64,000 bases of DNA. Source: Candidatus Bathyarchaeia archaeon (GTDB lineage: Archaea; Thermoproteota; Bathyarchaeia; Bathyarchaeales; Bathycorpusculaceae). Location: contig JAVZLM010000003.1 in the NCBI GenBank assembly GCA_038883775.1, forward strand, positions 32,001 to 96,000, given 5' to 3'. Positions 27,605 through 57,533 of the stretch are shown in pieces; position 1 is the first letter of the stretch, and the number at the start of each line of letters is the position of its first letter. A model generated the notes under the pieces. The model saw nothing but the letters and a program-made list of their open reading frames with translations, was not told the origin of the DNA and did not search any database. A program made the position numbers and the translations under genes.

Positions 27605-29620
27605 ATGGATAAGAAAAAAATCTTAGATTTAGTTTTTTTACTAACTTTAATTGTCCTTTCAAATTTATCCTATAACATTAAAACCATCAAAGCAAACTCT
27701 ACATTAATCGTAGAAAGCGGCGCGTCTGAAAACTTTCAAAAAATACAGGACGCTATAAACGCTGCAAATCCTGGAGATGTTATCCTTGTGCGTAACGGGG
27801 TATACTACGAAAATGTGTGCATCAACAAAACAATATCGCTAATTGGAGAAGATAAAAATTCGACAATAATTGATGGTGGCGGTGTCGGCATAGTCCTTAC
27901 AATTATTGCTAACAATGTCAAAGTTCAAGGTTTCACAATACAAAACGGAGGGACAAATTTACCAGATCGTACAATATTCGTGACAAATTGCCGTGAAGTT
28001 ATAATTGAAAATAATATGATCAGAAATTCTCTTTGCGGTATAGAATTAAGGAATTCAAACGCCTGTAAGATTATTAATAATGTTATTATGAGTCATTCGT
28101 GGAAGGGAATTTTCATTGCAGGTAATGATAATGAAGTGTGTTGCAATACCATAGCAAATAATTCTATTGGAGTTTCAATCGCTGCTCCAGTTGCACCTCC
28201 TAATAGATTTTATCGCAATAACTTCGTCAATAACACACTCCAAGCTGAGGGTACGGCAAATTGGGATAATGGTGCAGAAGGCAATTATTGGAGCGATTAT
28301 TCAGGTGAGGATATAAATGGAGATGGAATAGGGGATACTGAAACTCCGCATTTGGGAATAGATTTTCGTCCGTTGATGGAGCCGTGGCGTTCTTTAAGAA
28401 CTTTTTATGTTCCACTTGGGCAAAGAATTTATTGTATCACAATTTTTAGCAATTCTACAATTGCAAGTTTCGAGTTTGATCATCTGTTGAAGAGAATACG
28501 CTTTAACTCGACCGGGCCTTATGGAGTGTTCTCTTTTTGTAACGCTTCTATTCCGAAAGAATTACTAATAGGTCCTTTTGCGGTTTCTTTAGATGATATT
28601 CCAATAACTTTAATTGTGAACTCGAATGAAACGCATTCCTTTATATATTTTAACTACACTCTGTCCACTCATAAAATTCAAATTGATGGTTCATACATAA
28701 AACCTGTAGCCAATTTTGCTCCCTCCACCTTTATTCAAGCGACACATGAACCTGTATTTTTCAATGCGTCATTAAGTTACGATCCTGATGGTAATATAAC
28801 CATATACTATTGGGATTTTGGTGACGGTTCAACCCTCGAAAATAGTGCGTTTGTCTCGCATAAGTATGCTTTGTCCGGAAGATATCATGTGAGTTTAACG
28901 GTGAAGGATGATGATAACTTGACGGATACTTATGCAGTTGATGTCATTATAGGTGAGAAAATAGATGTTGAAGTTGATGTTGGCGTGTTATACTTTAAGG
29001 GGGAAACAGCCGAATTTTATGTTATAACTTCAATTTTGGGTCAGCCTTTGAATGTTACAAGTATTAGGGCAGAACTCTACTATAAAGGAACATTGTTTGC
29101 AAATTTAAGCGGTAGTGTTCAGCATGTTGCTGACGGAGTTTATCGAATAGTTTATAGAATACCTCTTCAAGCGGCTAATGGCACTTATGCTTTGGTCGTT
29201 GCTGTTGATTGTGGTTCGCTTAAGGGTTTCTCTCTTAAATGCTTCTTGGTTGATGGGTGGATTGAGGCTACTTTAGCAGATATTAAAAATGGAATTGCAA
29301 CTATTATAGTGCCAAATCTCGGAGAAATCGAAGCTAACTTGACCCAAATTAATGCGAGATTAATTGGAATAGAGGGGGTCTTCGGAATACTGAATTCATC
29401 CCTGGGCGAAATCAAGGTTAATTTAAATTCAATTAATGCTTCAATTGTTGAGGTTAAGGGTAGTTGCGTTATTTTTGAAACAGGTCTTGGCGAGATTGCT
29501 TTCTCATTGGATGGTCTTCACTCAGCTGTTTCCTTAGGAATTGTTGTGGTGTGTGCGTTATCCGTGTTAACAGTCACTTTAACTTCGGTTTGCCTTGCAC
29601 TTCTTAGAAGAAGGCGTTAG
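27605..29620 (+). CDS. Surface protein: NosD/CASH parallel beta-helix + PKD + stalk repeats + C-terminal TM
   Basis: IQDAINAANPGD..V.NGVYYE, GNYWSDY.G.D..GDGIGD, SYDPDG..YYWDFGDG, LGEI repeats, TM plus RRRR. Confidence 0.82.
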   Translation: MDKKKILDLVFLLTLIVLSNLSYNIKTIKANSTLIVESGASENFQKIQDAINAANPGDVILVRNGVYYENVCINKTISLIGEDKNSTIIDGGGVGIVLTIIANNVKVQGFTIQNGGTNLPDRTIFVTNCREVIIENNMIRNSLCGIELRNSNACKIINNVIMSHSWKGIFIAGNDNEVCCNTIANNSIGVSIAAPVAPPNRFYRNNFVNNTLQAEGTANWDNGAEGNYWSDYSGEDINGDGIGDTETPHLGIDFRPLMEPWRSLRTFYVPLGQRIYCITIFSNSTIASFEFDHLLKRIRFNSTGPYGVFSFCNASIPKELLIGPFAVSLDDIPITLIVNSNETHSFIYFNYTLSTHKIQIDGSYIKPVANFAPSTFIQATHEPVFFNASLSYDPDGNITIYYWDFGDGSTLENSAFVSHKYALSGRYHVSLTVKDDDNLTDTYAVDVIIGEKIDVEVDVGVLYFKGETAEFYVITSILGQPLNVTSIRAELYYKGTLFANLSGSVQHVADGVYRIVYRIPLQAANGTYALVVAVDCGSLKGFSLKCFLVDGWIEATLADIKNGIATIIVPNLGEIEANLTQINARLIGIEGVFGILNSSLGEIKVNLNSINASIVEVKGSCVIFETGLGEIAFSLDGLHSAVSLGIVVVCALSVLTVTLTSVCLALLRRRR

Positions 29621-29719
29621 CTTCTTCTCAGTTGAAAATTCGCTTAAAGTGTGACGAGCAGTAAACTATAAAAATGTATGCTTGTATTACAGTTTAAAGA
29701 TTTGGAAGGTGATAAAGCT

Positions 29720-32113
29720 ATGCGTAAAAATGCGTTGAGCTTGCTGCTTAGTCTTTTAATCTTCTTTGACCTCATCGTCTTTGTTGCTGGCCTTTCGATA
29801 GTTAATCCTAAGACAAGTCCAGGGTTTTTCGTCAGCGAATCTGAACATGACATTAAAATAATTCTTGAGGCGCCCGCGAACATTTTGTTGGGATATTCTT
29901 CTCCATTAAAAGCTACTGCAGTTAACGTGGGTTCTTCTGCTGAGACTAATGTAACATTATGCCTATTTATCGATGGCGCTGTTGTTGCTTCAAAGAGTGC
30001 AGATTTGGCCGTTGGTTCTAACAGTTCTGTTTCTTACACTTGGGTTCCTGGCCTTACATTGGAACAAGTGGAGCTTCCCAGATGGATTAATGATGTAAGC
30101 TTCAGCTATAATATCACTGCTTATGCCTATCCTGTCGAAGGCGAAACCAACATTGCAGACAATGTAGAAACTAAGATAGTTAATGTGTGGAACCCTGTTT
30201 TATATGTGGAGTCTCCTCCGCCTAAGAATGTCGGTGAAACTTTTACCATATCCGTTAAAGTGGCTAATTTAACAGATAAGATGATTCCTCATCCTGATCC
30301 TGCTAGGGCAGCTATTGGAAGCAAGGCTAATCTCGGAAACTTGTACGGTTTAGACATTGAATTTTCTTGGGATCCAAATATCCTCGAGTACGTAAGTCAC
30401 ACACCAACTATACCCATAGAAACTTATCCTGGAGGAGTTTTACATGCGCCTCTCCTTGAGCCATGGATTAATAACACAGTGTATGCGAGTGATGGCTTTT
30501 ACAGAATTACCGTTTCTTCTCTGTCGCCAGCGCCAGTGTTTAATAATCCATATGGGTCTAACACCGTTTTCAATATGACTTTCAGAGTGAAAAGTAAAGG
30601 AGGCTGTCTTTTAAAGCTGAGGTTCAGTGATCTCTCGCGAAAATGGGAGCTTGGTCAAGATTTGTTGATATTCCATGCTCGTCTTGATGGAGCTTTTGAA
30701 ACGGTGGGGGCTCCCAAAGCTGTTTTCACATGTTGGCCACCAGACGCAGCTGTTGCAAATAAGACAGTGCATTTTGATGCATCTGGAAGTTATGATCCAG
30801 ACGGATCCATAAATCTTTACATTTGGGACTTTGGGGATGGATCAAAGCAGAACACGACGGATCCTGTGGTGAGTCACAATTACACTAAAGAGGGACTTTA
30901 TTCCATAACTCTTAGAGTGAGAGATAATGAAGGCTCATTGAGTGTGCCGGTGATTAAGCGTCTTTGGGTTGTGAAGAAACGAGACATAAAATTAGAAACT
31001 ATCGGAGTTTCATCTAAATTGTTGCTGCAGAATTTGACGTTGACTATTAGTGTTAAAATAAAGAATTATGGAGATTGGGCGGAGAGTTTTATGGTTTCAG
31101 TGTACTACAATAAAACGGCTGTTGACACTGATACGCTTTGGGAACCTATAAGTGTGCAAAGTGTAGTTAAGATGGCTGAGTTAAGTGAGTTGACATTAAA
31201 GTTTTATTGGAATACAAGTGGCGTAACTCCAGAGGCATACTATTACATTATGGCGAATGCGACGGAACTTCCACATGAGGAGAGGGTGAATGATAATGTA
31301 CTGCTTTCCTCTGAAGCAGTGTTCATCACTGCTGAGATACGTCATGACGTAGCGGTTGTAGACATAGACATTAAAGCATCCGTGGGAACCACAGAGTTTA
31401 ATCTTCCAGTGTTGCGAGGTGAAAACGTGACAGTGCATTTAACTGTAGCGAGCGTGGGCAATGTTCCTGAAACATGTGATGTTACGCTTCATGTAATTGC
31501 TCCTAATGGTACGCTTTTGTTGAGTAAGACTTGGGAAGCTCTGAACTTAGATCCTGGCGACACACTGCGGTTAACGTATATTTTCAGCTCAGCTGATTTA
31601 TTAGGAGGAAACTACACAGCCAGCGTTAGTGCCGTAATTCAGGAGGAAGATTATAATCCTGATGATAATAGCATGGATGAAATTTTCAGAATTATTACCC
31701 CTCCGACTCTAGTGTTTGAAGTTCCAAGCGAAATTCATGTGGGGGACACCATAACTTTCGATGCTTCTGCAAGTGAATTTCCAGATGGAGAAATAGCGGT
31801 GTTTGAGTGGACATTCTATCAAGGTGGTTTGCTTAAATGGATCAAACGTGGAGAAAGCGTGGATGTTACCTTTGACTCTATTGGTCCTTGGAAAGTTCGC
31901 TTAGAAGTATGGGATAACTATGGAATCACTTATCAGGCTGGTCGCCCTCAGACAAGAGCTTACCGTAAAGAAGTGATATTCGATGTTACAGGGAAGACGG
32001 GAGGATTTACTCCAGAGATGCTATATTTGATAATTGGAACCGTCGTGGTTGTAGTTGTTGGAGTATTTGCCTACTTGAGGTTGAGGAAGCCTAGGGAAAA
32101 GCCTGAAAGCTGA
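29720..32113 (+). CDS. Membrane-anchored scaffoldin-like protein: CARDB, cohesin, PKD, CARDB x2, PKD, TM
   Basis: NLYGLDIEFSWDPNILEY cohesin pattern, WDFGDG, C-terminal TM plus basic tail; start at ATG 29720 after GGTGA. Confidence 0.78.
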   Translation: MRKNALSLLLSLLIFFDLIVFVAGLSIVNPKTSPGFFVSESEHDIKIILEAPANILLGYSSPLKATAVNVGSSAETNVTLCLFIDGAVVASKSADLAVGSNSSVSYTWVPGLTLEQVELPRWINDVSFSYNITAYAYPVEGETNIADNVETKIVNVWNPVLYVESPPPKNVGETFTISVKVANLTDKMIPHPDPARAAIGSKANLGNLYGLDIEFSWDPNILEYVSHTPTIPIETYPGGVLHAPLLEPWINNTVYASDGFYRITVSSLSPAPVFNNPYGSNTVFNMTFRVKSKGGCLLKLRFSDLSRKWELGQDLLIFHARLDGAFETVGAPKAVFTCWPPDAAVANKTVHFDASGSYDPDGSINLYIWDFGDGSKQNTTDPVVSHNYTKEGLYSITLRVRDNEGSLSVPVIKRLWVVKKRDIKLETIGVSSKLLLQNLTLTISVKIKNYGDWAESFMVSVYYNKTAVDTDTLWEPISVQSVVKMAELSELTLKFYWNTSGVTPEAYYYIMANATELPHEERVNDNVLLSSEAVFITAEIRHDVAVVDIDIKASVGTTEFNLPVLRGENVTVHLTVASVGNVPETCDVTLHVIAPNGTLLLSKTWEALNLDPGDTLRLTYIFSSADLLGGNYTASVSAVIQEEDYNPDDNSMDEIFRIITPPTLVFEVPSEIHVGDTITFDASASEFPDGEIAVFEWTFYQGGLLKWIKRGESVDVTFDSIGPWKVRLEVWDNYGITYQAGRPQTRAYRKEVIFDVTGKTGGFTPEMLYLIIGTVVVVVVGVFAYLRLRKPREKPES

Positions 32114-32238
32114 AAGCGTCGATGCTTTACTCCCTTTTTTATGTTATGATGTTTCTGTTGAGGATATAGAGAATTTTTCCAGAAAGCTTTTAAAGTTGTT
32201 TTCGGTAATAGGTTTTGGGAGAAAAGGAGAAATTGATA

Positions 32239-35200
32239 ATGGATATTAAAGAGAAAAAAGCGTATAGTCTATTGTCTGTTCTACTGCTTCTCGTTAGCTT
32301 CTTTGCAGCGGCAACGCCTGTGCTTAAAGCTCAAGCTCCTGAAACCGCCGTGAGGGTGTTTGTGAATGCGCCCTATCAGAGTGAGATGACCCTCGGCGAT
32401 GGGGTTACTGATGTTAGAGGAACAATTATCAGCATTGCTGTGGTTGTTGAGGATGTTGAGAACCTTTATGGTTTTGACATTAGACTGAAATGGCCTATGG
32501 AATACCTTGAATATGTTGACCACACGTTCACCATACCGTGGAATACGAGTCAAACGCCAATCGATCCAAGCCCCTATGCTGGCATTCTGTATGCGCCTGT
32601 GTCCCCTGTGCCTGGTCATGGATTGCACTTGGATGTGGGAGAAATTTGGGCTGTTATGGCTTCGCAGGCTCCTGCGCCATCCTTTTACGGTGACGGAACG
32701 GTTTTCGTTTTGAGGCTTAGATTGATTAAGCAGCAATACGCCTACGAGGGAGACGTTGAACTCGTTTTAAACATCACTACACATGACTTAGCCGGCAAAG
32801 TGCCGCCAGGCCCGCTCATAATTCCACACACGGCATACAATGGACGAATAATCCTTAAGGGAAGGGCTTTTGCTTATCCGCCACTTCCACTTCTGAAAAT
32901 ATTGCCAGAAACCATAAAAGACGTTAAACTCTGCGAGAACTTTGACATTAGTGTTTGGCTTATGGGTGAGGGCGGCGTTGACCTGGACCCATTCTGGGAC
33001 ATAAGCGGCTTCGACTTCACAGTAAACTTCAACTCAACCCTCCTAGAAGCAGTCGACGTCAAAATAGACCCAGCCAACTGGTGGCTAGGCTTCTACCCAG
33101 GCGGAGTCTGGACTACGGCAAAAGAAATTGACAATGTTACTGGAAGGGTTAGGATAGCCTTTATGGGTATACCTGACCCATCGCGGACTCCGCCACATGA
33201 TGCGCCACACGGGAAGGGCATCCTTGCCACAATAACCTTCCATGTCATCTACGAGTCTGAGAAGTATCCTCCGCCTTCTGCGCCCATATGGCTTGAAAAC
33301 CCGCTTCCACTAGCCCTCATAGACCTCTACAGCGAAAACGGCCTAATAAACCTCGGCAGCCCCGTATCAACAGACTGGCATGAAATCATGCCGGCATACT
33401 GTAAGCGTTTCGGCCTAACTTTCTGGGAGGATGTTGACGGCGACGGGCGCCTCAGCCCCAACGACCAAATCCGCCTCCTAAACAAAGAAACTGGCAAGTG
33501 GCTCCCCTACCGGGTCCACGCCGTCCCAGTAACCATGCGCGTTGACATCCTACCCTTCGAATACACAGACGAATACCACGAAGGCACAACAGCCTTCACA
33601 AACGCTTGGCCTCACCCAGGAATAGGCTCTTGGACTCCTCCAACGCCAATAACAGAGTATCCGCCTCCAGAAGGCTTCCCACCAGTTAATATATCCCTAA
33701 CCTATCTAGCCCAAGAAGTCCACAGCGTTGAAGTATTATTCCCCAACGGAACAAGAAGACTCCTCAACTACGGAACAGAATGGGACTACTACCCAGGAAC
33801 AAACCTAGTGGAAATAAAAATGATCCTTGGAACGCCAGAAACAGAATATTTCGTTGAAGACGTCAACATGACAACAGGCTGGGAAGGCTACGTACCCAAA
33901 GCAAGAGTCCTCTTAGACCCGCCGCCAACAGGTTGGATCCACCGCATAAGAGTCCAATTCCCAGAGGAAATACCGCCAGAATATCTAGACCTCTGGGATG
34001 GCTTCCAAGGCGAATACATAGAGCTTTTGCCATGGAAGATAAGTGGTGGATACCTATGGATGAACATGTGGGGCGAGCCAGGCTGGGACTATAACTGGGC
34101 TTATCACTACGCTCCAAACGTAGGCGTAGTAGCAATAGCTCCATGGGACAAGTTCCCGCCAGGCACAGAAGTTTGGATAGACTATTTTGCCCAGTCAACC
34201 CAAATATGGGTTAACTACACAGCCCTAGAACTAGAACCAAGATGGATTAAATCCGCAATAGGCGCAGCCGACTTCCCATTCACTGCACCATTAACAAGTG
34301 AATGGACAGAAATAATGCCGAATTTCGACAAAGAACATGTTATAACTGGCTGGACTGACACAGATGTTAACGGTCGCCTCAGCATAGGCGACATAATCCA
34401 ACTCTACGACGTGGAAACTGGCGAAACCAAACCCGCCAACATAACACTACTGGCAACAGGCCTAACCGTAATCCAAAAGCCCGTCATCTGCACCTTCGAC
34501 CTTGAAGACCCATTCTACGGCATGGTAGCCATAGTAGACGTGGCTGGCTTCCCCCACCCAGAAAGACCCATGTGCCCATGGCATAACCAACCCTACGCAG
34601 TCCCCATCCCCCACAAAACAGAACCAGCCACATACACAGCGCCTTTCAAGCCGCCAGGAAGATGGATAGACCTATACCTCTGGGGTATTGAAGCCTGCAA
34701 CGGAACAAGATGGGAATATGCAGACTTCGCCAAAGGATTAGGCCCCAACGAACCAGCCGACGCAGTTCAACCACAAGCAAAAGTGGTCCTCCGCGCCTTT
34801 GTAACCTACAACTTCCAGCCAATAGCAGGAAAATCAGTGACATTCGAACTCATATCCCCAACAGGAGAATTCCACATAATCAGAAGCGCCATAACAGGAG
34901 GCTGGGACACACCACTATACGGCATAGCTGAAGTAATAGTAACAATACCATGGCCATACCCAGACCCAGAAGGAAGAGTCTTCGGAACATGGAACGTCAT
35001 AGCCACAGTAGACATAGTAAAAGTAGTAATCAACGACACCCTAACCTTCAGATTAGGCTACCTAATAGACACAGTCTTCGTAATACCAGGCAAACAAACA
35101 TACCATAAAGGCGAACACATGAACTTCACCCTAACATACACAAGCATATCACACCAAATCCGCACAGCCTACTTCACAATAGTAGTCTACGACGAACTAG

Positions 35201-35400: not shown

Positions 35401-35420
35401 AACAATAAAAACTCAACCCA

Positions 35421-35433
35421 CCCCCCTTTTTAT
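35421..35433 (+). terminator. CCCCCCTTTTTAT terminator-like site
   Basis: Follows the stop via CAATAAAA and an AC-rich spacer; same layout at 48872-48905. Confidence 0.65.
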
Positions 35434-35489
35434 CATATCCAAAAATAACGTTTAAAAGAACAAGAACTAAATATTAATTGGGTTGAATT

Positions 35490-38562: not shown

Positions 38563-38683
38563 CCTAATTTTTTCCATGTTCTCAATTTTAGACTTTTTAT
38601 TTTCTTCCTTTAGGCTTAACTTAGTTAAAGATAGAAAAATTCAAATATTCATCGCTAAAATACATAGAGTCTGCGGTGAAAGA

Positions 38684-48908: not shown

Positions 48909-48914
48909 AAAGCC

Positions 48915-49951: not shown

Positions 49952-49953
49952 AC

Positions 49954-51573
49954 ATGGCCACATACAAAGAGAGAGCAGCCTTCACACTTAAAAGACTAAA
50001 AAATTTCTGGAGGGATTTCTCCAGAAGCAAAAGAGGAGTCCTAGGAGTTGTCATCATACTATTCTACATTATAGTAGCCTTAATAGGTCCACTATTCATA
50101 ACAATTGACCCCCTCTTTCCAACAATGCCAGGATACTACCCAGCAGGCCCAGCTCCAATAGCTGATGTTCTATGCAAACCCACATGGTACAAGTACTTTC
50201 CAGGCAGAAGCGGCATGTCAGAAAACATGAAGTTAATATCAGATCACGAGTTCTCCTCAATCAAAGCAATGGAGGCTTGGGATCAAAAGACTAACGCTCC
50301 AAACTTAATAAGCTATGCATATAACCCAACAGCGGGATCCCACAACAACGACGGATGCATCGAAATATCCTATAACCGCCCAGCCGATTACACTAGCACT
50401 GAAACACCATACCTTCAAATAACCCACAACTTTACCTATCCATACCAGGAAAGCCCAAGAAAATTCTGGATACACCTCTCCTTCCTCCTCAACGGCACAA
50501 TAACAAGGGAAAGTTACGTGTCAATAGAAGTATCATTTTACAGAATTCAAACCCCCCCACCGCCATTAAATTATACGTACCCAAGTTCTCTAACAACGTA
50601 CATAGACTCATTAATAATTTACAAATACCCACTACATAGCATAAATACAACTAGTCCCTCCGCAACCTGGACTCACATGTGGATCACCTCAACCAGAGAC
50701 AGCATAATGTACGATCCAAAATACTACCTCAAACCATGCGCCATCATATTTCCAACATCAGGCAATTACACATTTGAAATTAAAGTAAGCTTTTACGACA
50801 CAGCAACCACTGAAAGAGAAATAAAAGTTTATCTCGACAATTTAGACGTGCTAATTTACGGAGAAGCCTACGGCATACTCGGAACAGACTATAAGACAGG
50901 AGGCCCAAGAGACAACCTAATATCCCTCGTATACGGCGCAAGAATCTCAATATTCGTCGGTTTACTCGCAACCTTTATCTCCGTCAGCCTCGGCTTACTC
51001 GTAGGATTAACAGCAGGATACGTTGGAGGATTAGGCGACGAAGCACTAATGAGACTTGCAGACTTCCTCATGTGCCTCCCAGGCTTGCCATTATATATTG
51101 TGCTGATGGTAGTCTTAGGAAGCTCCATATGGAACGTAATATTACTCATGTCCTTCCTTGGATGGATGGGTTTCTCACGCCAAATAAGATCCATGACCCT
51201 ATCATTACGCGAAAGAGCCTTCGTTGAAGCCGCCAAGGCCGCCGGAGCAGGCAAAGTCTGGATCCTATTTAAGCATATTCTCCCAAACGTCTTCGCGCTA
51301 GTTTACATAGCATTAGCAGTTTCAGTTCCAGGAGTTGTATTAACAGAAGCAACATTAAGTTGGCTCGGACTATTCGATCCAAAACAAATATCATGGGGAA
51401 GAATGCTTCACGAATTCTCCCAAGCAGGTGTTGCAGTTGCAAGAGGCATCGAAGATTACTGGTTCTGGGTGATTCCACCAGGCATAGCCATCGCCTTATT
51501 AGCGATAGCCTTCGTGTTGCTCGGCTACTCTTTAGATGAAATATTAAATCCCAAGCTTAGAGTAAGACGTTAA
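49954..51573 (+). CDS. oppC: Oligopeptide/dipeptide ABC permease C with large extracellular insertion
   Basis: ILGTD..G.RD, YGARISI.VG, ERAFVEAAKAAGA, HILPN, DEILNPKLR; start at ATG 49954. Confidence 0.9.
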   Translation: MATYKERAAFTLKRLKNFWRDFSRSKRGVLGVVIILFYIIVALIGPLFITIDPLFPTMPGYYPAGPAPIADVLCKPTWYKYFPGRSGMSENMKLISDHEFSSIKAMEAWDQKTNAPNLISYAYNPTAGSHNNDGCIEISYNRPADYTSTETPYLQITHNFTYPYQESPRKFWIHLSFLLNGTITRESYVSIEVSFYRIQTPPPPLNYTYPSSLTTYIDSLIIYKYPLHSINTTSPSATWTHMWITSTRDSIMYDPKYYLKPCAIIFPTSGNYTFEIKVSFYDTATTEREIKVYLDNLDVLIYGEAYGILGTDYKTGGPRDNLISLVYGARISIFVGLLATFISVSLGLLVGLTAGYVGGLGDEALMRLADFLMCLPGLPLYIVLMVVLGSSIWNVILLMSFLGWMGFSRQIRSMTLSLRERAFVEAAKAAGAGKVWILFKHILPNVFALVYIALAVSVPGVVLTEATLSWLGLFDPKQISWGRMLHEFSQAGVAVARGIEDYWFWVIPPGIAIALLAIAFVLLGYSLDEILNPKLRVRR

Positions 51574-51576
51574 ACC

Positions 51577-51957
51577 TTAACCTTTACTCAAAGAATCTAT
51601 TTTTTCATCTAAAAATCTCCAAAAATCATCCTCAATTTTTTCCAAAGCCTCTAAAGACTTCAAACCTTTCGATAAAAACCATCCACCGCCCAAAAATGAT
51701 GTCAACCAGCCAAACTTAACAAACGAACGAGAACGCCTTCCAGCCTCAAAAACCACCAAGAAATCATCAGGTTTCCCTCTAATAAAAACTTCAATGTGTT
51801 CGCATAAGTCATGAATGCGCCTAGGAGCTGCTGTAATCTTATACTCTTCCGATGAACACTGCATATTCGTCAAAAAACCCCTATGCTTAAAGAAACCCTC
51901 TAAAACTTCACACAGCAACTTTAAGTTAATATTTTTTCGAATCCACCGACTCTGCAT
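51577..51957 (-). CDS. Hypothetical protein inserted antisense within the opp cluster
   Basis: 126 aa ORF with a GAGG RBS that fills the oppC-oppD gap. Confidence 0.7.
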   Translation of the reverse strand: MQSRWIRKNINLKLLCEVLEGFFKHRGFLTNMQCSSEEYKITAAPRRIHDLCEHIEVFIRGKPDDFLVVFEAGRRSRSFVKFGWLTSFLGGGWFLSKGLKSLEALEKIEDDFWRFLDEKIDSLSKG

Positions 51958-52025
51958 GTTCCTCTAATTTGTAAATAAAGTTCTTACTAAAAAATTTTTG
52001 GAAAAGCTTTCCATCTATAATGGCT

Positions 52026-52036
52026 AAACCTTAAAT
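52026..52036 (+). promoter_or_regulatory. BRE/TATA AAACCTTAAAT upstream of oppD
   Basis: Identical to the 11-mers at 46424 and 48915. Confidence 0.55.
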
Positions 52037-52110
52037 AGCAATGCTTCCACTTAAAGCAAGATGGAAGGCAATCAGCTTTCAAACCTTGCAAGGGGAGGAA
52101 AACAAAAGAC

Positions 52111-53073
52111 ATGGAATTACTTAATGTCAACAACTTAAAAACTTACTTTTTCACACTGAGTGGTGCAGTGAAGGCTGTAGACGGCGTAAATTTTGTAATT
52201 GAAAAAGGAGAAGCAATGGGGTTAGCCGGAGAATCCGGTTGCGGAAAAACCACAGTAGCCCTATCGCTTTTAAGAATTCTTCCACCAGGAGGAAAAATTG
52301 TTGGCGGAAAAATCCTATTCAAAAACTTAAACATAGTCGACTTAGATGAAAGTGATCTGCGGAATAAGGTAAGATGGAAAGGAATTTCTTTAATATTCCA
52401 AGGAGCAATGAATGCGCTTAACCCCGTCCACAGGGTAAAGGACCAAATTATAGAAGCAATAAAGTTACACGAACCGCATGTAACAAAGGATGAAGCTAAA
52501 GAAAGAGTTTTAAAACTCTTTGAAATGGTAGGTTTAGATCCTTCAAGGGTTAACAGTTATCCTCATGAATTAAGTGGAGGAATGAAGCAGCGTGCCATGA
52601 TAGCAATGGCTCTAGCGTGCAACCCCGAACTTTTGATAGCGGATGAACCTTCAACAGCATTAGACGTTATAGTTCAAGCTCAAGTCCTCCAACTTATAAA
52701 GCATTTAAAAGAAAAACTACAGTTATCCATGATACTTATATCTCATGATCTGTCAATTGTTGCCGAAACATGCGATAAAGTGGCTATTATGTATGCGGGA
52801 AAAATAGTAGAATACGGAGATGTCAAAACACTTTTCGAGGAACCTCTACATCCATACGCACAAAGTTTGATAAAGGCCTTTCCACACATTAAAGAAGCTA
52901 AGACCCGCTTAATTTCTATACCAGGCGCTCCCCCAGATCTAATAAATCCTCCCACTGGTTGTCGATTCCACCCCAGATGCAGTTATAGTATGGAAATTTG
53001 TAAGAAAAAAGAACCGCCTATGATAAATGTTAAGGGTAACGCGCATTACGTAAGTTGTCACCTTATTGGTTAA
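52111..53073 (+). CDS. oppD: Oligopeptide ABC ATPase D
   Basis: GESGCGKT, LSGGMKQR, IADEP, HPY..GCRFHPRC tail. Confidence 0.93.
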   Translation: MELLNVNNLKTYFFTLSGAVKAVDGVNFVIEKGEAMGLAGESGCGKTTVALSLLRILPPGGKIVGGKILFKNLNIVDLDESDLRNKVRWKGISLIFQGAMNALNPVHRVKDQIIEAIKLHEPHVTKDEAKERVLKLFEMVGLDPSRVNSYPHELSGGMKQRAMIAMALACNPELLIADEPSTALDVIVQAQVLQLIKHLKEKLQLSMILISHDLSIVAETCDKVAIMYAGKIVEYGDVKTLFEEPLHPYAQSLIKAFPHIKEAKTRLISIPGAPPDLINPPTGCRFHPRCSYSMEICKKKEPPMINVKGNAHYVSCHLIG

Positions 53074-53093
53074 GTTGATGGAGAGATAACAAA

Positions 53094-54089
53094 ATGAGCG
53101 AAACAATAGTTAAAGTAGTAAATTTGAAAAAATGGTTTCCTGTAAAATTGGGTTTCTTTAAAACATTAGTTTCCCGCAAGCAACTTTATGTTCGCGCGGT
53201 AGACGGCATAAACTTAGAAATAAAAAAGGGAGAAATTTTTGGACTTGCAGGCGAAAGTGGGAGTGGAAAGACCACTACAGGACGGTTACTTGTTAAACTT
53301 ATTGAACCAACATCCGGACAAATTTTCTTTGGTGATAAAGATGTAACTAACCTTCCAGAAAGCCAATTTAAGCCTTTCCGTCAAAAAATACAAATAATTT
53401 TCCAAGATCCATATGAGTCGCTTAATCCTAGAATGACAATTTTTGACATTATAGCTGAACCTTTACGCCTTCAAGCTGGTTTAAGCGGATCTGAACTTGA
53501 TGAAAAAGTTTTCAAAGTCTTAACCGACGTAGGTTTAGTTCCGCCTCATGAGTTCATTTTTAGATTCCCCCACGAGTTAAGCGGAGGACAAAGGCAACGA
53601 GTGGCTACGGCGAGAGCTTTATCGCTGAGTCCAGATTTCATAGTTGCTGACGAACCAGTGTCAATGTTAGATGTATCTATCAGAGCAGAAGTTTTAAATT
53701 TAATGTTCGATTTAATGAAGAAGTACCATGTGTCTTTCCTTTACATCACACATGATTTAGCATTAGCTCGACACATCTGCGACGAAATAGCTATAATGTA
53801 TCTTGGTAAAATCATGGAAAAGGGACCTACAGAAAAAGTCATTTATGAACCTTTGCATCCCTACACAAAAGCCCTAATATCAGCTGTTCCTGTTCCTGAC
53901 CCATCATCAAAACGAGCGGAAATAGTGATAAAAGGAGAAATTCCAAGTCCAGTTAACCCACCCCCAGGCTGCAGATTCCACACAAGATGTCCAGAATACA
54001 TTGGCGACGTGTGTAGAACAAAAGAGCCAACGCTTATAAATGTGGGAAAGGCTCATTATGTTGCATGCCATTTATACTCTAAACCTTAA
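53094..54089 (+). CDS. oppF: Oligopeptide ABC ATPase F
   Basis: GESGSGKT, FQDPYESLNP, LSGGQRQR, DEPVSMLDVS, GCRFHTRC. Confidence 0.93.
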   Translation: MSETIVKVVNLKKWFPVKLGFFKTLVSRKQLYVRAVDGINLEIKKGEIFGLAGESGSGKTTTGRLLVKLIEPTSGQIFFGDKDVTNLPESQFKPFRQKIQIIFQDPYESLNPRMTIFDIIAEPLRLQAGLSGSELDEKVFKVLTDVGLVPPHEFIFRFPHELSGGQRQRVATARALSLSPDFIVADEPVSMLDVSIRAEVLNLMFDLMKKYHVSFLYITHDLALARHICDEIAIMYLGKIMEKGPTEKVIYEPLHPYTKALISAVPVPDPSSKRAEIVIKGEIPSPVNPPPGCRFHTRCPEYIGDVCRTKEPTLINVGKAHYVACHLYSKP

Positions 54090-54102
54090 AATCTTCAAAA
54101 TT

Positions 54103-54345
54103 TCATGAGCCTTGAAGCCCTTTAGTTCCTTGTTCTGATTCTTTTATTTTTGATAGAATCCAATCTTTATAGGCTGCCACAACTCCCCAAGCTATAAATA
54201 TTCCAATTGTTGCTAAGGCATTAAATGGTGAAGGAAGCCATACAAGGGCCAAAACTAAAAGGAAAGGTGTTAAAGTTACCAAAATACCAGCAATCACAAT
54301 AACCCAAAAATATTTGGAACGTAAGATAGAACCTAGTAGTCCCAT
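54103..54345 (-). CDS. Small 2-TM membrane protein
   Basis: Hydrophobic ORF; start at ATG 54345 or 54366. Confidence 0.6.
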   Translation of the reverse strand: MGLLGSILRSKYFWVIVIAGILVTLTPFLLVLALVWLPSPFNALATIGIFIAWGVVAAYKDWILSKIKESEQGTKGLQGS

Positions 54346-54458
54346 ATTTACGAACCATGTTTGCATAAAATAAAAAGGTTTCTCTTCTACTTTTAGTGCA
54401 TTTACCTCAAGAATAAAATATTAATTGTTCTTATTATATTATAACATTTATTGAAAAT

Positions 54459-57400
54459 ATGGAGATGAAGGAACTGAATATCAAGATAGCAATTTTAGTA
54501 ACGCTGCTAACTTTCCTGACATTAACATTAAATGGCATAAGCGTAATAGAGGGGCAATGCGTAAACCAGGCGTCGCTCGAATGGAATCAAAGAGACCTTG
54601 AACGGATTCTTGATCAACAAGACCGGTTGAAAAAAATTGCCTATGTGAAAAACGACCTTGTCAGGTTGGTGTTGGGAGTTGATGCTCAAGTTTCATATAG
54701 CTATTTTAAGCTGGAAAAAGTTGTTGCCGCTTATAGTGGGCGCATAGTTAATTTAATCTCGATGAACAGCGAAGTTAAAGCAGTAACTGTTGAAATTCCA
54801 ATAAAGCGCTCTTCGATTTTTATGAGTGAAATAACTGAAAAAAAGATGGCAAAGTTTATTGAGCCTAACTTTAAATTTCAATGTCAGTTTGTTCCAAATG
54901 ATCCTTATTGGACACTGCAGTGGGGACCGCAAAAAATAGAAGCTCCTTGGGCATGGAACATAACAGTAGGTGACCCCTCAGTTCTTGTGGCGGTTGTGGA
55001 TACTGGAATAGATTATTCCCATCCAGATCTAGCTGCTAACTATGTCGCCCTTGGCAGGGATTGGGTGAACGGTGACCCGGATCCCATGGATGATGAGGGA
55101 CATGGAACACATTGTGCAGGCATAATAGCCGCTGTATTAAATAACGGCATCGGCATCGCCGGGGTGGCTAAAATTAAAATAATGGCTGAGAAAGGTCTTG
55201 ATAGAACAGGATCCGGATACACAGATTGGCTTGCGAATGCCATCATTCACGCTGTAGAAAAAGGTGCCAAAATTATAAGCATGAGCTGGGGAGGATACTA
55301 CCACAGCAAACTAATTTATGAAGCAATTAAATATGCTTATGATTCTGGCGTGCTTTTAGTGGCGGCCGCAGGTAACGATCGAGTAAATGCAAAACTATTC
55401 CCTGCGGGTTATAATGAAGTTATAGCCGTTGCGGCAACAGACGATTACGATAATGTTGCTTCATGGTCCAACTTCGGCGATTGGATTGAATTGTCAGCGC
55501 CGGGAGTGCAGATTTATTCTACTTATCCAAGAAATAATTATGTGTATTTAAGTGGGACTTCGATGGCGGCGCCGCATGTAAGTGGTGTTGCAGCTTTAAT
55601 TTGGAGCCAATTTCCAGAAAAAAGCAGAGACTGGGTGAGGATACGTTTACGATACACTAGCGATGACATCAGTTTTCCAGGTTATGATATTCGTTCTGGT
55701 TATGGAAGAATTAACGCAAGAAAAGCTGTTGAGCAGCCTCTGTTAAATCATGATTTAGCCTTTTACGATTGGGAGTTTCCTCCTTATGTAGAACCAGGAA
55801 GCACGGCAACGGTTAATTTTACAGTGTTGAATTTTGGAGCGCAAAACGAATACGATGTAACTATACAGCTGTTAATAGAGGGAGCCCTCACAAACTTTAC
55901 CGTTATAAGCTTCATTGCTAATGGTACATCTGAAACAGCAAGTGTTAAATGGAACCCAGTTACAAAAGGAAATTATAACGTCACTTTATATTTGGTTCCC
56001 GTATCTGGCGAATTTTCCATCCAAAATAACAGAGTTACAAAATTTGTTTATGTAGATTTTCCAAGAAAAGCTTTGGTTCTAAGTTCAGAAGGGAATGTTT
56101 TAAGTTTTGTCACCCGCAATTGGGATGAGTTAAATGCGAAATGGTCTTCCTTTGGAGATAACATGATCTACATTGATTATACAACTTTAAACAAAGAAGA
56201 CATAACGTACGAAGAGATTGCAACTACAAACGCAGACGTTTTAATAATTTCGAGTGCATGGACTTCCGAGTATGGATGGGAATTTACAGATTCAGAAATA
56301 GACGCTATAAAGAGATACGTGCTTGAAGGACACGGATTAATAGTTACGGAAGCTACATTTTATCATCCAGTTCAAAACAATGTTAAGTTAGCTTCGCTGT
56401 TAGGGTTAAACGACTCGTTAATCTGGAATTATACAACAGCCACCTCTCTCAATCTGATAGAACCTAGCCATCCGCTTCTACGTGGAATCCCAAATCCCTA
56501 TTCTTTTCCGGAAGTAACAACTATGATTTCTTTAGACGGTTTATGGGATGACAATGAGTTAGAAGGCGGCAAATATATTGCGCTGGGAAGCAATAAGAAA
56601 ACTGCAATAGTTGTCTCTGAACGTGGCCGCGTTTATATTTCGCCTTATCTTGAAAGTATAGATCCATCAGCAAGTCAGAATCATCTAAAGTTACTTTACA
56701 ACGCCATTACATGGTCACCTCATGAACTTTCGGTATCATTGGATGCGCCAAATTATCATCCTTTAGGCGAATCATTGCTGCTTAATGCAACAGTTCATAA
56801 CATTGGATCCGTAAATGAAACAAATGTTCTTTTGCAATTGATTATTAATGGTTCAACAGTCTGTTCCGCAGTTATTGCAGAGTTAAAAAGCAATTCTTCT
56901 TATACGATAAGCTACTTATGGACGCCGGAAGAGGGCGAATACAATGTTACAGCTTATGCTGCTCCAGTAAAAGGCGAGACTTTTAAAATCAACAATACTG
57001 AAACGAAAATTGTCAAGATATCGCGTTTTCGTGATGTGGCGGTGTTTAACATTTCAGCTCCGAATGCGGCTTATAAAGGAAGTATTGTAAAAATCGAAGT
57101 TTTGGCAGGAAATTTGGGAGAACTCAGCGAAACCTTTAATGTTACCGTATACTGTGACTATACACTTATAGCCACGCTTCCTGTGGTAGACTTACTCCCA
57201 AAACAAAATATAACATTAACACTTTGGTGGAACACTTCAGCGTTAACACCTTGTCATACGTATAATATTTGGGCTGAAGCAACATCGGTTTCAGGTGAGG
57301 TTAACATAGAAAATAATGTTTTCATTGGGGTGCAAGTGAAGATTAAAATGCTTGGAGATGTAAATGGAGATGGTAACATTAACATTTACGATGTTGTGTT

Positions 57401-57533
57401 GGTCGCGTCAATTTATGGATGCAAAGAAGGAGATCCCAACTGGAATTCAGAAGCCGACTTGGCTCCACCATGGGGATTAATCAACATATATGACATTGTA
57501 GTAATAACCTCCGTATATGGGCAAAAATGTTAA
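54459..57533 (+). CDS. Secreted S8 subtilisin-like protease with CARDB domains and C-terminal dockerin
   Basis: Signal and propeptide; VAVVDTG, GHGTHCAG, AAGN, GTSMAAPHV; tail GDVNGDGNINIYD...ADLAPPWGLINIYD. Confidence 0.92.
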   Translation: MEMKELNIKIAILVTLLTFLTLTLNGISVIEGQCVNQASLEWNQRDLERILDQQDRLKKIAYVKNDLVRLVLGVDAQVSYSYFKLEKVVAAYSGRIVNLISMNSEVKAVTVEIPIKRSSIFMSEITEKKMAKFIEPNFKFQCQFVPNDPYWTLQWGPQKIEAPWAWNITVGDPSVLVAVVDTGIDYSHPDLAANYVALGRDWVNGDPDPMDDEGHGTHCAGIIAAVLNNGIGIAGVAKIKIMAEKGLDRTGSGYTDWLANAIIHAVEKGAKIISMSWGGYYHSKLIYEAIKYAYDSGVLLVAAAGNDRVNAKLFPAGYNEVIAVAATDDYDNVASWSNFGDWIELSAPGVQIYSTYPRNNYVYLSGTSMAAPHVSGVAALIWSQFPEKSRDWVRIRLRYTSDDISFPGYDIRSGYGRINARKAVEQPLLNHDLAFYDWEFPPYVEPGSTATVNFTVLNFGAQNEYDVTIQLLIEGALTNFTVISFIANGTSETASVKWNPVTKGNYNVTLYLVPVSGEFSIQNNRVTKFVYVDFPRKALVLSSEGNVLSFVTRNWDELNAKWSSFGDNMIYIDYTTLNKEDITYEEIATTNADVLIISSAWTSEYGWEFTDSEIDAIKRYVLEGHGLIVTEATFYHPVQNNVKLASLLGLNDSLIWNYTTATSLNLIEPSHPLLRGIPNPYSFPEVTTMISLDGLWDDNELEGGKYIALGSNKKTAIVVSERGRVYISPYLESIDPSASQNHLKLLYNAITWSPHELSVSLDAPNYHPLGESLLLNATVHNIGSVNETNVLLQLIINGSTVCSAVIAELKSNSSYTISYLWTPEEGEYNVTAYAAPVKGETFKINNTETKIVKISRFRDVAVFNISAPNAAYKGSIVKIEVLAGNLGELSETFNVTVYCDYTLIATLPVVDLLPKQNITLTLWWNTSALTPCHTYNIWAEATSVSGEVNIENNVFIGVQVKIKMLGDVNGDGNINIYDVVLVASIYGCKEGDPNWNSEADLAPPWGLINIYDIVVITSVYGQKC

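What the first reader, a model, noticed from the sequence alone, without database searches (positions are those of the whole stretch)
27605..57533. Cellulosome-like cohesin-dockerin surface complex whose cargoes are a protease and a peptide-binding protein
Seen: about 12 cohesin-like modules (genes at 8143 x2, 10907, 29720, 32239 x2, 36643 x3, 38684 x2, 42754) and 6 C-terminal dockerin-like modules (8143, 10907, 35490, 36643, 46481, 54459). They fall into three tiers: TM-anchored cohesin proteins without a dockerin (29720, 38684, 42754), adaptors with both cohesin and dockerin (8143, 10907, 36643), and dockerin-only cargoes (S8 protease, family 5 SBP, 35490). Known: this anchor/adaptor/cargo logic is that of clostridial and ruminococcal cellulosomes, and a few cohesin and dockerin modules are known in Archaeoglobus fulgidus. 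No glycoside hydrolase is recognisable here. Inference: an archaeal scaffold that co-localises extracellular proteolysis with oligopeptide capture next to the OppBCDF transporter.
Basis: partly seen in the sequence, partly recalled or inferred. Interest (0 to 1): 0.9.

Follow-up and report, generated by a model that had tools for sequence, protein, structure and literature searches.

The report
Archaeal cohesin-dockerin surface tethering gene cluster
An uncultured archaeon (Bathyarchaeia) encodes a conserved set of membrane-anchored "socket" proteins and secreted "plug"-tagged proteins, among them a protease and a nutrient-binding protein, that probably snap together on the cell surface. Similar parts are known from other archaea and from bacterial cellulosomes, so this is a variant of a known kind.

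Summary
The DNA comes from a Bathyarchaeia genome.

The core is a gene cassette conserved across Bathyarchaeia MAGs. It runs: 2-cohesin protein ending in a beta-sandwich "domain X"; domain-X + dockerin protein; 3-cohesin + CARDB + dockerin adaptor; then cohesin proteins with C-terminal membrane anchors.

The dockerin on the family-5 binding protein is found in 14 of 14 homologs. The dockerin on the S8 protease is found in 68 of 120 homologs. Opp genes or S8 genes flank the cassette in several other genomes.

Near the cassette elsewhere, cargoes are mostly non-proteolytic: PKD proteins, PQQ propellers, NosD beta-helices and binding proteins, with 1 peptidase among 47. I therefore read it as a general surface-tethering network with peptide scavenging among its clients, not a dedicated proteolysis machine.

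ANME archaea already have published multi-cohesin proteins, dockerin-tagged binding proteins and subtilase-bearing cohesin/dockerin proteins. Verdict: new variant of a known kind.

The parts
8143..10827 (+). g8143: secreted protein with InlB-B-like repeats, two cohesins (nt 9799-10212 and 10231-10647) and a C-terminal dockerin (10639-10824). Its dockerin differs in type from the other five.
   Evidence: Cohesin 21.5 and 16.8 bits; Dockerin_1 21.5 bits. Both calcium loops are canonical. Loop positions 10-11 read LE and LF rather than IY.
10907..11923 (+). g10907: small adaptor with a cohesin (10991-11419), CARDB and a dockerin (11723-11920).
   Evidence: (Cohesin 33.9 bits, above cut-off; Dockerin_1 19.9 bits). 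Both loops are canonical.
27605..29620 (+). g27578: NosD-like beta-helix + PKD protein with a C-terminal membrane anchor. It has no cohesin or dockerin and is a neighbour that shares its stalk/anchor region with g38546.
   Evidence: NosD 57.7 bits, PKD_4 70.4 bits. (hydrophobic segment 646-677). (36% identity to g38546 over 435 aa). No hits with either window HMM.
29720..32113 (+). g29678: membrane anchor with CARDB, one class-A cohesin (30191-30712), PKD x2, CARDB and a C-terminal TM helix with a basic tail.
   Evidence: (TM 776-803), (Cohesin 24.4 bits).
32239..35400 (+). g32215: secreted two-cohesin protein (class A at 32395-32865, class D at 32905-33294) ending in beta-sandwich 'domain X'. 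It has no anchor and no dockerin. First gene of the conserved cassette.
   Evidence: (60-72% identity to g38546), (the C-terminal domain is conserved in the first cassette gene of other loci; MG-like leads only).
35490..36479 (+). g35490: signal peptide, 'domain X' (two beta-sandwiches, about residues 34-265) and a dockerin (36279-36476). Second cassette gene.
   Evidence: (Dockerin_1 21.4 bits), (pLDDT 84.1; only generic beta-sandwich matches).
36643..38562 (+). g36577: adaptor with three cohesins (class A 36766-37209, class B 37219-37623, class C 37639-38049), CARDB and a dockerin (38362-38559). Third cassette gene.
   Evidence: (Cohesin 77.3 bits, 3 stretches), (190 homologs at E<=1e-3, the 120 listed being 37-100% identical; fold; position-specific classes).
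38684..42649 (+). g38546: membrane anchor with two cohesins (class A 38837-39304, class D 39347-39745), an unassigned middle region, PKD x2 and a C-terminal TM helix. Fourth cassette gene.
   Evidence: (TM 1337-1366), (28.0 and 16.5 bits).
42754..45933 (+). g42739: membrane anchor with CARDB, one class-A cohesin (43201-43653), PKD x3, Big_3_5 x2 and a C-terminal TM helix. Fifth cassette gene.
   Evidence: (TM 1032-1062), (25.5 bits).
46481..48871 (+). g46433: family-5 solute-binding protein with a signal peptide and a C-terminal dockerin variant (48653-48868) that lacks both canonical calcium loops.
   Evidence: SBP_bac_5 49.3 bits, above cut-off 32.4. (window dockerin HMM, E 1.9e-23). (14 of 14 homologs carry the same variant). 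(substrate not assignable).
48959..54089 (+). Opp/Dpp/Nik-type ABC importer: oppB 48959-49951; oppC 49807-51573 (longest ORF; orthologs align from residue 49, so the real start is probably near 49950); oppD 52111-53073; oppF 53094-54089.
   Evidence: no equivalog cut-off met. (oppB and oppC orthologs at 41-58% and 30-54% identity lie next to the cassette in L002, L007, L009 and L011).
54459..57533 (+). g54459: secreted S8 subtilase + CARDB + an unassigned middle domain + CARDB x2 + dockerin (57333-57530).
   Evidence: Peptidase_S8 202.8 bits. (D181, H215, S368 and N306 invariant in 12 orthologs). (Dockerin_1 21.6 bits). (68 of 120 homologs have a dockerin).
57626..61252 (+). g57626: CBM96/DNRLRE + PKD + seven InlB-B-like repeats + C-terminal TM anchor. 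It has no cohesin or dockerin and is a directly anchored surface neighbour.
   Evidence: CBM96 124.3 bits, Flg_new_2 229.8 bits; TM 1181-1202.

Best explanation
This is a Bathyarchaeia cell-surface tethering network built from cohesin and dockerin modules.

A conserved cassette supplies the framework:
- two or three proteins held in the membrane by a C-terminal helix, each displaying cohesins on PKD/CARDB stalks (g29678, g38546, g42739);
- a secreted adaptor with three different cohesins and its own dockerin (g36577);
- a secreted two-cohesin protein with no anchor (g32215);
- a secreted beta-sandwich protein with a dockerin (g35490).

Secreted proteins that end in a dockerin are plugged into these cohesins and so kept at the cell surface of an organism without an outer membrane. 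In this genome the clients include the binding protein of an Opp/Dpp-type ABC importer and an S8 subtilase. That would keep protein breakdown and uptake of the products close to the permease. In related genomes the clients are also PQQ beta-propellers, NosD-type beta-helices and PKD proteins, so the system is general-purpose, with peptide scavenging as one use.

SHOWN: module identity and fold; membrane topology by hydropathy; conservation of the cassette and of the fusions; neighbourhood links.

INFERRED: that cohesins bind dockerins here; who binds whom; what the transporter carries.
For: MODULE IDENTITY., as set out in the observation check.

TOPOLOGY. 12 of the 13 surface proteins examined have an N-terminal hydrophobic segment. 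5 have a C-terminal one followed by basic residues.

LINEAGE AND CONSERVATION.
- The adaptor has 190 homologs at E<=1e-3. The 120 listed are 37-100% identical, and every named one is from Bathyarchaeota/Bathyarchaeia.
- Among 185,579 species genomes, 30 loci were found. 26 are titled Bathyarchaeota/Bathyarchaeia, 1 Thermoproteota, and 3 'uncultured archaeon' from a single MAG.
- 22 of the 30 loci hold a multi-cohesin adaptor. Of those 22, 18 have the domain-X + dockerin gene upstream on the same strand; 2 of the 4 misses have no upstream sequence. 12 have the cohesin + domain-X gene before that. 13 have a cohesin + TM gene downstream; at least 6 of the 9 misses are cut by contig ends.

CLIENTS.
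- Binding-protein dockerin: 14 of 14 homologs.
- S8 dockerin: 68 of 120 homologs, 67 of them C-terminal; 26 of 120 also carry a cohesin.
- 9 of 47 dockerin-only proteins near cassettes are family-5 binding proteins.
- Opp and S8 orthologs neighbour the cassette in other genomes even though the arrangement differs.

SIGNS OF PARTNER CO-EVOLUTION.
- 29 of 72 dockerins have their nearest relative in the same genome, against 4.4% expected by chance. Loop positions 10-11 are genome-specific: IY here, and IL, IF, VR or MR elsewhere.
- Adaptor cohesin 1 is nearest to a cohesin of another protein of the same genome in 5 of 17 adaptors. Cohesins 2 and 3 never are (0 of 17 each); their nearest relative lies in another genome, almost always the same-position adaptor module.

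PRECEDENT. Section 32 of PMC9012536 (read in full) reports the same kinds of protein in ANME archaea and cites work showing that archaeal cohesin-dockerin pairs bind.
Against: No binding evidence of any kind was obtained.

None of the 6 window dockerins reaches Pfam's gathering score.

Only 2 of 6 have two canonical calcium loops, 3 have one, and the binding protein's has none. By a regular-expression count, 112 of 120 adaptor homologs have exactly one canonical loop, and 14 of 14 binding-protein homologs have none. Such loops might mean weakened or altered binding.

52 of 120 S8 homologs have no dockerin detected, so tethering is not obligatory for this protease family.

The client census covers only +/-10 kb around 30 cassettes plus one 64-kb window, not whole genomes.

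The adaptor model has a low pTM of 0.46, so the relative placement of its domains is not predicted.

The role of the unanchored g32215 and of domain X is unexplained.
Confidence: 0.6

Rival explanations
1. Dedicated 'proteolysome'. The scaffold exists specifically to hold the S8 protease and the peptide-binding protein together above the Opp permease, so that peptides are captured as they are released.
For: The binding protein, oppBCDF and the S8 gene follow the cassette directly on one strand. Both carry dockerins that are conserved in homologs: 14 of 14 and 68 of 120. Opp or S8 orthologs flank the cassette in at least 7 other loci. The window also holds four TldD/PmbA genes, an S9 peptidase and an M14 carboxypeptidase.
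Against: Of 47 dockerin-only proteins near 30 related cassettes, 1 has a peptidase domain and none is an S8. 17 carry PKD, PQQ-propeller or NosD/beta-helix domains. The cassette occurs without Opp or S8 within 10 kb in most loci. The substrate of the binding protein cannot be assigned; from general knowledge, archaeal members of this transporter family often carry sugars. The TldD/PmbA, S9 and M14 genes are not neighbours of the cassette in the other loci: 0, 0 and 1 of 30.
Confidence: 0.2
2. Envelope or adhesion structure. The cassette builds a structural surface layer, or mediates attachment to particles or to other cells. Cohesin-dockerin pairs act as structural glue, and enzymes are incidental passengers.
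For: The invariant cassette members have no enzyme domain. They consist only of cohesin, CARDB, PKD, Big and beta-sandwich domain X. Domain X gives only generic beta-sandwich matches. Adhesion was the hypothesis offered for ANME cohesin/dockerin proteins in PMC5244752 (passages read).
Against: Dockerins are conserved on a transporter binding protein and on a protease, which are functional clients rather than structural ones. No S-layer or known adhesin family was detected in the cassette proteins.
Confidence: 0.12
3. Polysaccharide- or lignin-degrading, cellulosome-like complex whose catalytic subunits lie outside the window.
For: Neighbours include a CBM96/DNRLRE protein (124.3 bits) and a NosD-type beta-helix protein. 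Beta-helix proteins carry dockerins in 3 of the 47 related cargoes.
Against: No glycoside hydrolase, lyase or esterase family reaches its cut-off in the 36 window ORFs or the 47 related cargoes. No CBM sits on any cohesin-bearing protein. The CBM96 protein has neither a cohesin nor a dockerin.
Confidence: 0.04
4. The modules do not pair. The dockerin-like tails are calcium-binding or stabilising tails, the cohesin-like domains are generic beta-sandwich spacers, and they merely co-occur in surface proteins.
For: All six dockerins are below the Pfam cut-off and most have degenerate calcium loops.
Against: Both profiles match solved interacting cohesins and dockerins, including both chains of one complex: 2y3n_A at E 5.3e-8 and 2y3n_B at E 7.1e-13. 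The helices that follow the loops are conserved even where the loops are not. The cassette order is conserved, and dockerins are homogenised within genomes.
Confidence: 0.04

Closest known systems
Cohesin/dockerin proteins of ANME methanotrophic archaea. Sources: Chadwick et al. 2022, PMC9012536 (section 32 read, S4 Data searched); Timmers et al. 2017, PMC5244752 (passages read).
   Same: Archaeal and non-cellulolytic. They include proteins with one dockerin plus several cohesins, and dockerins on OppA/NikA-type binding proteins. Subtilase-family domains occur in the table of cohesin/dockerin proteins: 671 occurrences of 'subtilase' in file 4, which is S4 Data. CARDB and PKD domains are abundant alongside them.
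   Different: A different phylum. For ANME I saw only a domain census. I saw no conserved cassette, no position-specific cohesin classes and no calcium-loop variants described there. The S-layer-domain + dockerin proteins reported for ANME-2c were not seen here; anchoring here is by C-terminal TM helices.
Bacterial cellulosomes, especially the type II cohesin-dockerin pairs of Acetivibrio cellulolyticus (3l8q) and Bacteroides cellulosolvens (2y3n).
   Same: Closest solved relatives by sequence profile and by fold. The same anchor/adaptor/cargo architecture.
   Different: No glycoside hydrolase cargo and no CBM on a scaffold. Membrane-helix anchors take the place of SLH or sortase anchors (that bacterial detail is taken). 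Most dockerins have one or no canonical calcium loop. At most three cohesins per protein in the window.
Archaeoglobus fulgidus cohesin and dockerin modules (recalled; cited as refs 167-168 in PMC9012536).
   Same: Archaeal cohesin-dockerin pairs outside cellulose degradation, reported there to bind specifically.
   Different: Not compared here. No A. fulgidus chain appeared among the PDB profile hits at E<=1, and no A. fulgidus sequence was fetched.
Non-cellulose 'somes' of bacteria: the Ruminococcus bromii amylosome (PMC4611034) and mucinolysomes (PMC12997984). Search listing and abstract starts only.
   Same: The cohesin-dockerin scaffold is reused for a substrate other than cellulose.
   Different: Those are bacterial and carry glycoside hydrolases. 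Here the recognisable enzyme cargo is a protease, and a transporter binding protein is also tagged.

Membership tests
Cohesin (Pfam PF00963) | Sequence match at or above the curated score | tested here: met
   6 of 12 modules score at least 24.1 bits, and 11 of 12 have Cohesin as top hit. The profile of all 12 hits solved cohesins down to E 1.5e-17.
Cohesin (Pfam PF00963) | Flattened beta-sandwich (jelly-roll) fold like solved cohesins | tested here: met
   In the adaptor model (pLDDT 85.6) the four best PDB matches are the cohesin dyad 3l8q, E 5e-16 to 1e-14. Only the adaptor's three modules were folded.
Cohesin (Pfam PF00963) | Binds a dockerin | not testable with these tools
Needs a bench assay.
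Dockerin (Pfam PF00404) | Sequence match at or above the curated score | tested here: inconclusive
   0 of 6 window modules reach 22.9 bits; 5 of 6 score 17.9-21.6. 23 of 47 related dockerin-only proteins do reach it, up to 43.4 bits. The window profile hits solved dockerins at E 7e-13.
Dockerin (Pfam PF00404) | Two tandem segments, each with a calcium-binding loop (D-x-D/N-x-D/N ... D) followed by a helix | tested here: not met
   The two segments and both helices are present in 6 of 6 (helices 613-621 and 647-655 in the model). Both loops are canonical in only 2 of 6, one loop in 3 of 6, and none in 1 of 6. This pattern is conserved in homologs.
Dockerin (Pfam PF00404) | Calcium-dependent folding and cohesin binding | not testable with these tools
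   Needs ITC or native PAGE with and without EDTA.
Cellulosome in the strict sense | Dockerin-bearing glycoside hydrolases as cargo | tested here: not met
   No GH family among the 36 window ORFs or the 47 related cargoes.
Cellulosome in the strict sense | Scaffoldin with several cohesins and a carbohydrate-binding module | tested here: not met
   Multi-cohesin proteins are present (2-3 modules each), but none carries a CBM. CBM96 sits on g57626, which has no cohesin.
ANME-type archaeal cohesin/dockerin repertoire | Proteins with one dockerin plus several cohesins, and dockerin-tagged OppA/NikA-type binding proteins | tested here: met
   g36577 and g8143 are the former; g46433 is the latter.
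Opp/Dpp/Nik ABC importer | Binding protein, two permeases and two ATPases with the oligo_HPY C-terminal region | tested here: met
   SBP_bac_5, BPD_transp_1 x2, OppC_N, and ABC_tran + oligo_HPY x2.
Opp/Dpp/Nik ABC importer | Assignment to a substrate-specific equivalog (peptide, nickel or other) | tested here: not met
   No NCBIfam cut-off is reached by any of the five proteins.
Subtilase (peptidase S8) | Pfam match and an Asp-His-Ser triad | tested here: met
   202.8 bits. D181, H215 and S368, plus N306, are invariant in 12 orthologs. Assigning these residues to the triad rests on recalled motif knowledge.

The most novel reading that the evidence does not exclude
Bathyarchaeia carry a lineage-wide, fixed-composition surface organelle. 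The adaptor's three positionally conserved cohesin classes each recruit one dockerin class, and the calcium-loop variants serve as the address code: loop 1 only, loop 2 only, or neither. This would place the binding protein, the S8 protease and the domain-X protein in defined positions over the Opp permease, giving channelled extracellular protein degradation and uptake. It would also mean that some dockerins bind without calcium and in a single orientation.
Probability: 0.15. Interest if true: 0.8.

Novelty: new variant of a known kind. Interest (0 to 1): 0.55.

Why it matters
Bathyarchaeia are among the most abundant archaea in anoxic sediments and are thought to live partly on detrital protein. 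How they start extracellular protein breakdown is still debated. One genome study states that its MAGs lack extracellular peptidases and asks how degradation is initiated (PMC9534799, passages read).

A secreted S8 protease family that frequently ends in a dockerin, next to a conserved cohesin cassette and a dockerin-tagged transporter binding protein, gives a concrete and testable model. The modules are small enough to express and test for binding without culturing the organism.

For the cellulosome field, the conserved dockerins with one or no canonical calcium loop, and the position-specific cohesin classes on a three-cohesin archaeal adaptor, offer new specificity types for study and for designer scaffolds.

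I found no paper linking Bathyarchaeota with dockerin, cohesin or cellulosome in its title or abstract. The searches found 10, 11 and 21 papers holding both terms in their text; I judged these from the listings only.

Tried and rejected
1. COMPLEX PREDICTION. The queue was full each time, and the tool was declared unavailable. Nothing was folded.

2. MIRROR-TREE TEST. I asked whether a dockerin's between-genome distances track one cohesin class beyond the background divergence (after a script error). All pairs co-vary (partial r 0.21-0.69), so the test does not assign partners.

3. QUICK ML TREE. A tree of 154 cohesin modules shows position labels clustered (0 of 500 shuffles as low) but not monophyletic, with few columns. 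I relied on nearest-neighbour counts instead.

4. DOMAIN X FOLD SEARCH. Only generic beta-sandwich matches (E about 1e-6, TM below 0.3). No function follows.

5. ESM ATLAS on the g32215 C-terminus. All scores were 0.87 or lower, giving leads to MG/Big domains only.

6. REPRESENTATIVE-LIBRARY SEARCH with the cohesin profile. It found 14,021 proteins at E<=1e-3, some with up to 12 matched stretches. The named large ones are bacterial, so the count says nothing specific about archaea.

7. PFAM on the OppC insert, the g32215 middle region and the S8 middle domain. Nothing reached its cut-off.

8. LIPID ANCHOR IDEA. I considered that g35490 might be a lipid-anchored anchor. The cysteine after its signal peptide is not conserved in the 10 orthologs, so I rejected this.

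9. PAPER NOT HELD. Peer et al. 2009 (PMC3035643) is not held. Its content is known to me only through citations.

10. FAULTY PATTERN. The first loop-counting pattern was in the wrong register and was replaced.

11. RNA SCANS. tRNA and Rfam scans of the window found nothing.

12. ATYPICAL DOCKERIN SEARCH. Two papers, neither about loop-less dockerins judging by their listing.

Full report
WHAT IS THERE. From 25.1 kb to 62.3 kb all large ORFs lie on the + strand. Pfam shows that the stretch named in the finding encodes a run of secreted multidomain proteins (cohesin, CARDB, PKD, Big), an Opp/Dpp-type ABC importer and an S8 subtilase.

I built an HMM from the clearest cohesin modules and iterated it over all 356 six-frame ORFs of 50 aa or more. 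It finds 12 modules and no more: g8143 x2, g10907 x1, g29678 x1, g32215 x2, g36577 x3, g38546 x2 and g42739 x1.

Because that HMM is circular, I tested each module alone against Pfam. Cohesin is the top hit for 11 of 12, and 6 of 12 reach the curated score. The one module without a hit belongs to g32215, which is 60% identical to g38546 over its N-terminal 580 residues.

A profile of the 12 modules hits solved cohesins: best 3l8q_A at E 1.5e-17, with 21 of the 26 listed hits at E<=1e-3. An AlphaFold model of the adaptor g36577, built with 21 homologs, has mean pLDDT 85.6. Its four best PDB matches are the cohesin dyad 3l8q. Generic multi-Ig proteins follow in that list, as expected for a string of beta-sandwiches.

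DOCKERINS. Six proteins end in a duplicated segment of about 65 residues, and the six align with each other. Pfam Dockerin_1 is hit by 5 of 6, but all are below the curated score. The six-sequence profile nevertheless hits solved dockerins: 2y3n_B at E 7e-13, with 15 chains at E<=1e-3. 23 of 47 dockerin-only proteins from related genomes pass the Pfam cut-off.

The window's modules are an atypical subgroup:
- Both calcium loops are canonical only in g8143 and g10907.
- In g36577 and g54459 the second loop is replaced by an A-x-P-W-G type segment.
- In g35490 the first loop is replaced in the same way.
- In the binding protein g46433 neither loop is canonical.

This is conserved rather than decayed. 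By a pattern count on the last 80 residues, 112 of 120 adaptor homologs have exactly one canonical loop and 6 have two. All 14 binding-protein homologs have none, and they share a G-P-K-P-R-x-G-Y segment in place of loop 1. The helices that follow the loops are kept throughout.

ORGANISM AND CONSERVATION. The adaptor has 190 homologs at E<=1e-3. The 120 listed are 37-100% identical over nearly full length, and every one that carries an organism name is from Candidatus Bathyarchaeota/Bathyarchaeia.

A scan of one genome per species found 30 related loci. 26 are titled Bathyarchaeota/Bathyarchaeia, one Thermoproteota, and three 'uncultured archaeon' from one MAG. The best is 50% identical, so the window's own species is not among those representatives.

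Annotating the 712 ORFs of these loci with the window HMMs, and with a BLAST for 'domain X', reveals a conserved cassette:
- gene 1: cohesins + domain X, with no anchor;
- gene 2: domain X + a variable middle part + dockerin;
- gene 3: a three-cohesin + CARDB + dockerin adaptor;
- genes 4 and 5: cohesin proteins with a C-terminal membrane helix.

22 of the 30 loci hold a multi-cohesin adaptor. Of those 22, 18 have gene 2 upstream, 12 have gene 1 before it, and 13 have an anchored cohesin protein downstream. Most misses are loci cut by contig ends.

The window has the full set, in the order g32215, g35490, g36577, g38546, g42739, with a further anchor (g29678) in front. Domain X folds as two beta-sandwiches (pLDDT 84.1) with only generic structural matches.

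COHESIN CLASSES AND DOCKERIN TYPES. A tree of 154 modules (quick ML check) and nearest-neighbour counts separate four classes:
- Class A: adaptor module 1 plus the modules of the anchors and of gene 1.
- Classes B and C: adaptor modules 2 and 3.
- Class D: module 2 of the two-cohesin proteins.

Modules 2 and 3 never have their nearest relative in the same genome (0 of 17 each). It is almost always the same-position module of another genome's adaptor. Module 1 is nearest to a cohesin of another protein of its own genome in 5 of 17 cases.

Dockerins are likewise homogenised within genomes. 29 of 72 have their nearest neighbour in the same genome, against 4.4% by chance. Loop positions 10-11 are genome-specific: IY in five of the six window dockerins, and IL, IF, VR or MR elsewhere. 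From recalled knowledge of clostridial dockerins, these positions are specificity determinants.

Because the adaptor and the cargoes share these residues, sequence does not show a two-specificity hierarchy like type I/type II in Clostridium thermocellum. The loop variants may carry the distinction, but that is speculation.

CLIENTS. The S8 protein has the invariant residues D181, H215, S368 and N306 in 12 orthologs. Of its 120 listed homologs (42-100% identical), 68 carry a dockerin, 67 of them at the C-terminus, and 26 also carry a cohesin.

All 14 binding-protein homologs carry the dockerin variant. Orthologs of the dockerin-tagged binding protein, oppB and oppC lie next to the cassette in L002, L007, L009 and L011, on the opposite side and strand from the window. 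S8 orthologs (55-58% identical) lie next to it in L013, L022/L029 and L026. An association that survives rearrangement argues for a functional link.

The 47 dockerin-only proteins within 10 kb of the 30 cassettes break down as follows:
- 9 family-5 binding proteins (8 above cut-off);
- 9 PKD-only;
- 5 PQQ beta-propellers (4 distinct genes);
- 3 NosD/beta-helix;
- 3 CARDB-only;
- 1 C39-like peptidase with a thioester-domain-like region;
- 17 with nothing beyond the dockerin.

The transporter cannot be assigned a substrate, because no NCBIfam equivalog cut-off is met.

INTERPRETATION. The best reading is a general surface-tethering network. Membrane-anchored cohesin proteins and a three-cohesin adaptor hold secreted dockerin-tagged proteins at the surface of a cell that has no outer membrane. 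In this genome a protease and a transporter binding protein are among the clients.

It is weakened by the diversity of clients elsewhere and by the unassigned substrate. Binding itself is inferred from homology, because the complex-prediction tool could not be used.

COMPARISON WITH WHAT IS KNOWN. The closest solved relatives are bacterial type II-like cohesins and dockerins. It is not a cellulosome in the strict sense: it has no glycoside hydrolase cargo, no CBM on a scaffold, and membrane-helix anchors.

The closest described system is the ANME cohesin/dockerin repertoire. Section 32 of PMC9012536 describes dockerin + multi-cohesin proteins (up to five cohesins) and dockerin-tagged OppA/NikA and TroA binding proteins. 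Its S4 table of such proteins contains many subtilase-domain lines. PMC5244752 reports high counts of both domains in ANME-1 and ANME-2a.

For Bathyarchaeia I found no paper addressing these modules (judged from listings only). Database annotations already call some homologs 'cohesin domain-containing protein'.

Three things appear new here: the conserved cassette with domain X, the position-specific cohesin classes, and the conserved one-loop and no-loop dockerins. I therefore rate it a new variant of a known kind.

LIMITS. Only 64 kb of the source genome was available. Peer et al. 2009 was not held. The ANME supplementary tables were searched for terms, not read through.

Noticed in passing
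window 11931-22644: A peptide-degradation island lies between the two cohesin/dockerin gene groups. It holds two divergent TldD/PmbA pairs (11931-14655 on the minus strand, 16769-19500 on the plus strand) around an S9 prolyl oligopeptidase (14829-16628), then an MFS transporter and an M14 carboxypeptidase. None of these neighbours the cassette in the 30 related loci, except M14 in L002.
   Followed up: partly
window 50107-50871 (OppC residues about 101-355): OppC carries an insert of about 250 residues between its N-terminal TM helix and the permease core. It has no Pfam match. The long form is conserved in the OppC orthologs of L007, L009 and L011.
   Followed up: partly
window 56046-56738 (S8 residues about 530-760): A conserved middle domain of the S8 protease gives only sub-threshold matches to LBP_M and ThuA-type domains (24.2 and 17.7 bits). 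Many longer homologs carry PF06283, PF14258 or alpha-2-macroglobulin domains.
   Followed up: partly
window 32215-35400 and 38546-42649: g32215 and g38546 are recent paralogs, 60% identical over 577 aa and 72% over 226 aa. One lacks and the other has the PKD + TM tail. Both contain an EF-hand-like D-V-D-G-D-G-R-L-S-P-N-D motif in an unassigned middle region.
   Followed up: no
window 27578-29620 versus 38546-42649: The C-terminal 400 or so residues of the NosD-like protein g27578 (PKD, stalk, TM) are 36% identical to the tail of the cohesin anchor g38546. In other genomes NosD/beta-helix proteins carry a dockerin instead (3 of 47). The same kind of protein is therefore anchored either directly or through a dockerin.
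   Followed up: partly
window 10639-10824: The dockerin of g8143 differs from the other five at loop positions 10-11 (LE and LF versus IY), and its cohesins are the most divergent ones. This may be a second, separate specificity.
   Followed up: no
window 5710-7473; loci L002, L003, L007, L017, L020, L024: An ATP-dependent DNA ligase lies within 10 kb of the cohesin cassette in 6 of the 30 related loci as well as in the window. This suggests a conserved chromosomal neighbourhood.
   Followed up: no
protein P0243: A 55%-identical paralog of the dockerin-tagged binding protein is listed with the same longest-contig length as the window's own protein. A second copy may lie on the same contig outside the window. 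I did not pursue this.
   Followed up: no
locus L027 1066-4692: A 1209-aa dockerin protein combines a C39-like peptidase domain with a thioester/terpenoid-cyclase-like (alpha-2-macroglobulin TED) region, fn3 and CARDB. It was the only peptidase-type cargo among the 47 examined.
   Followed up: no
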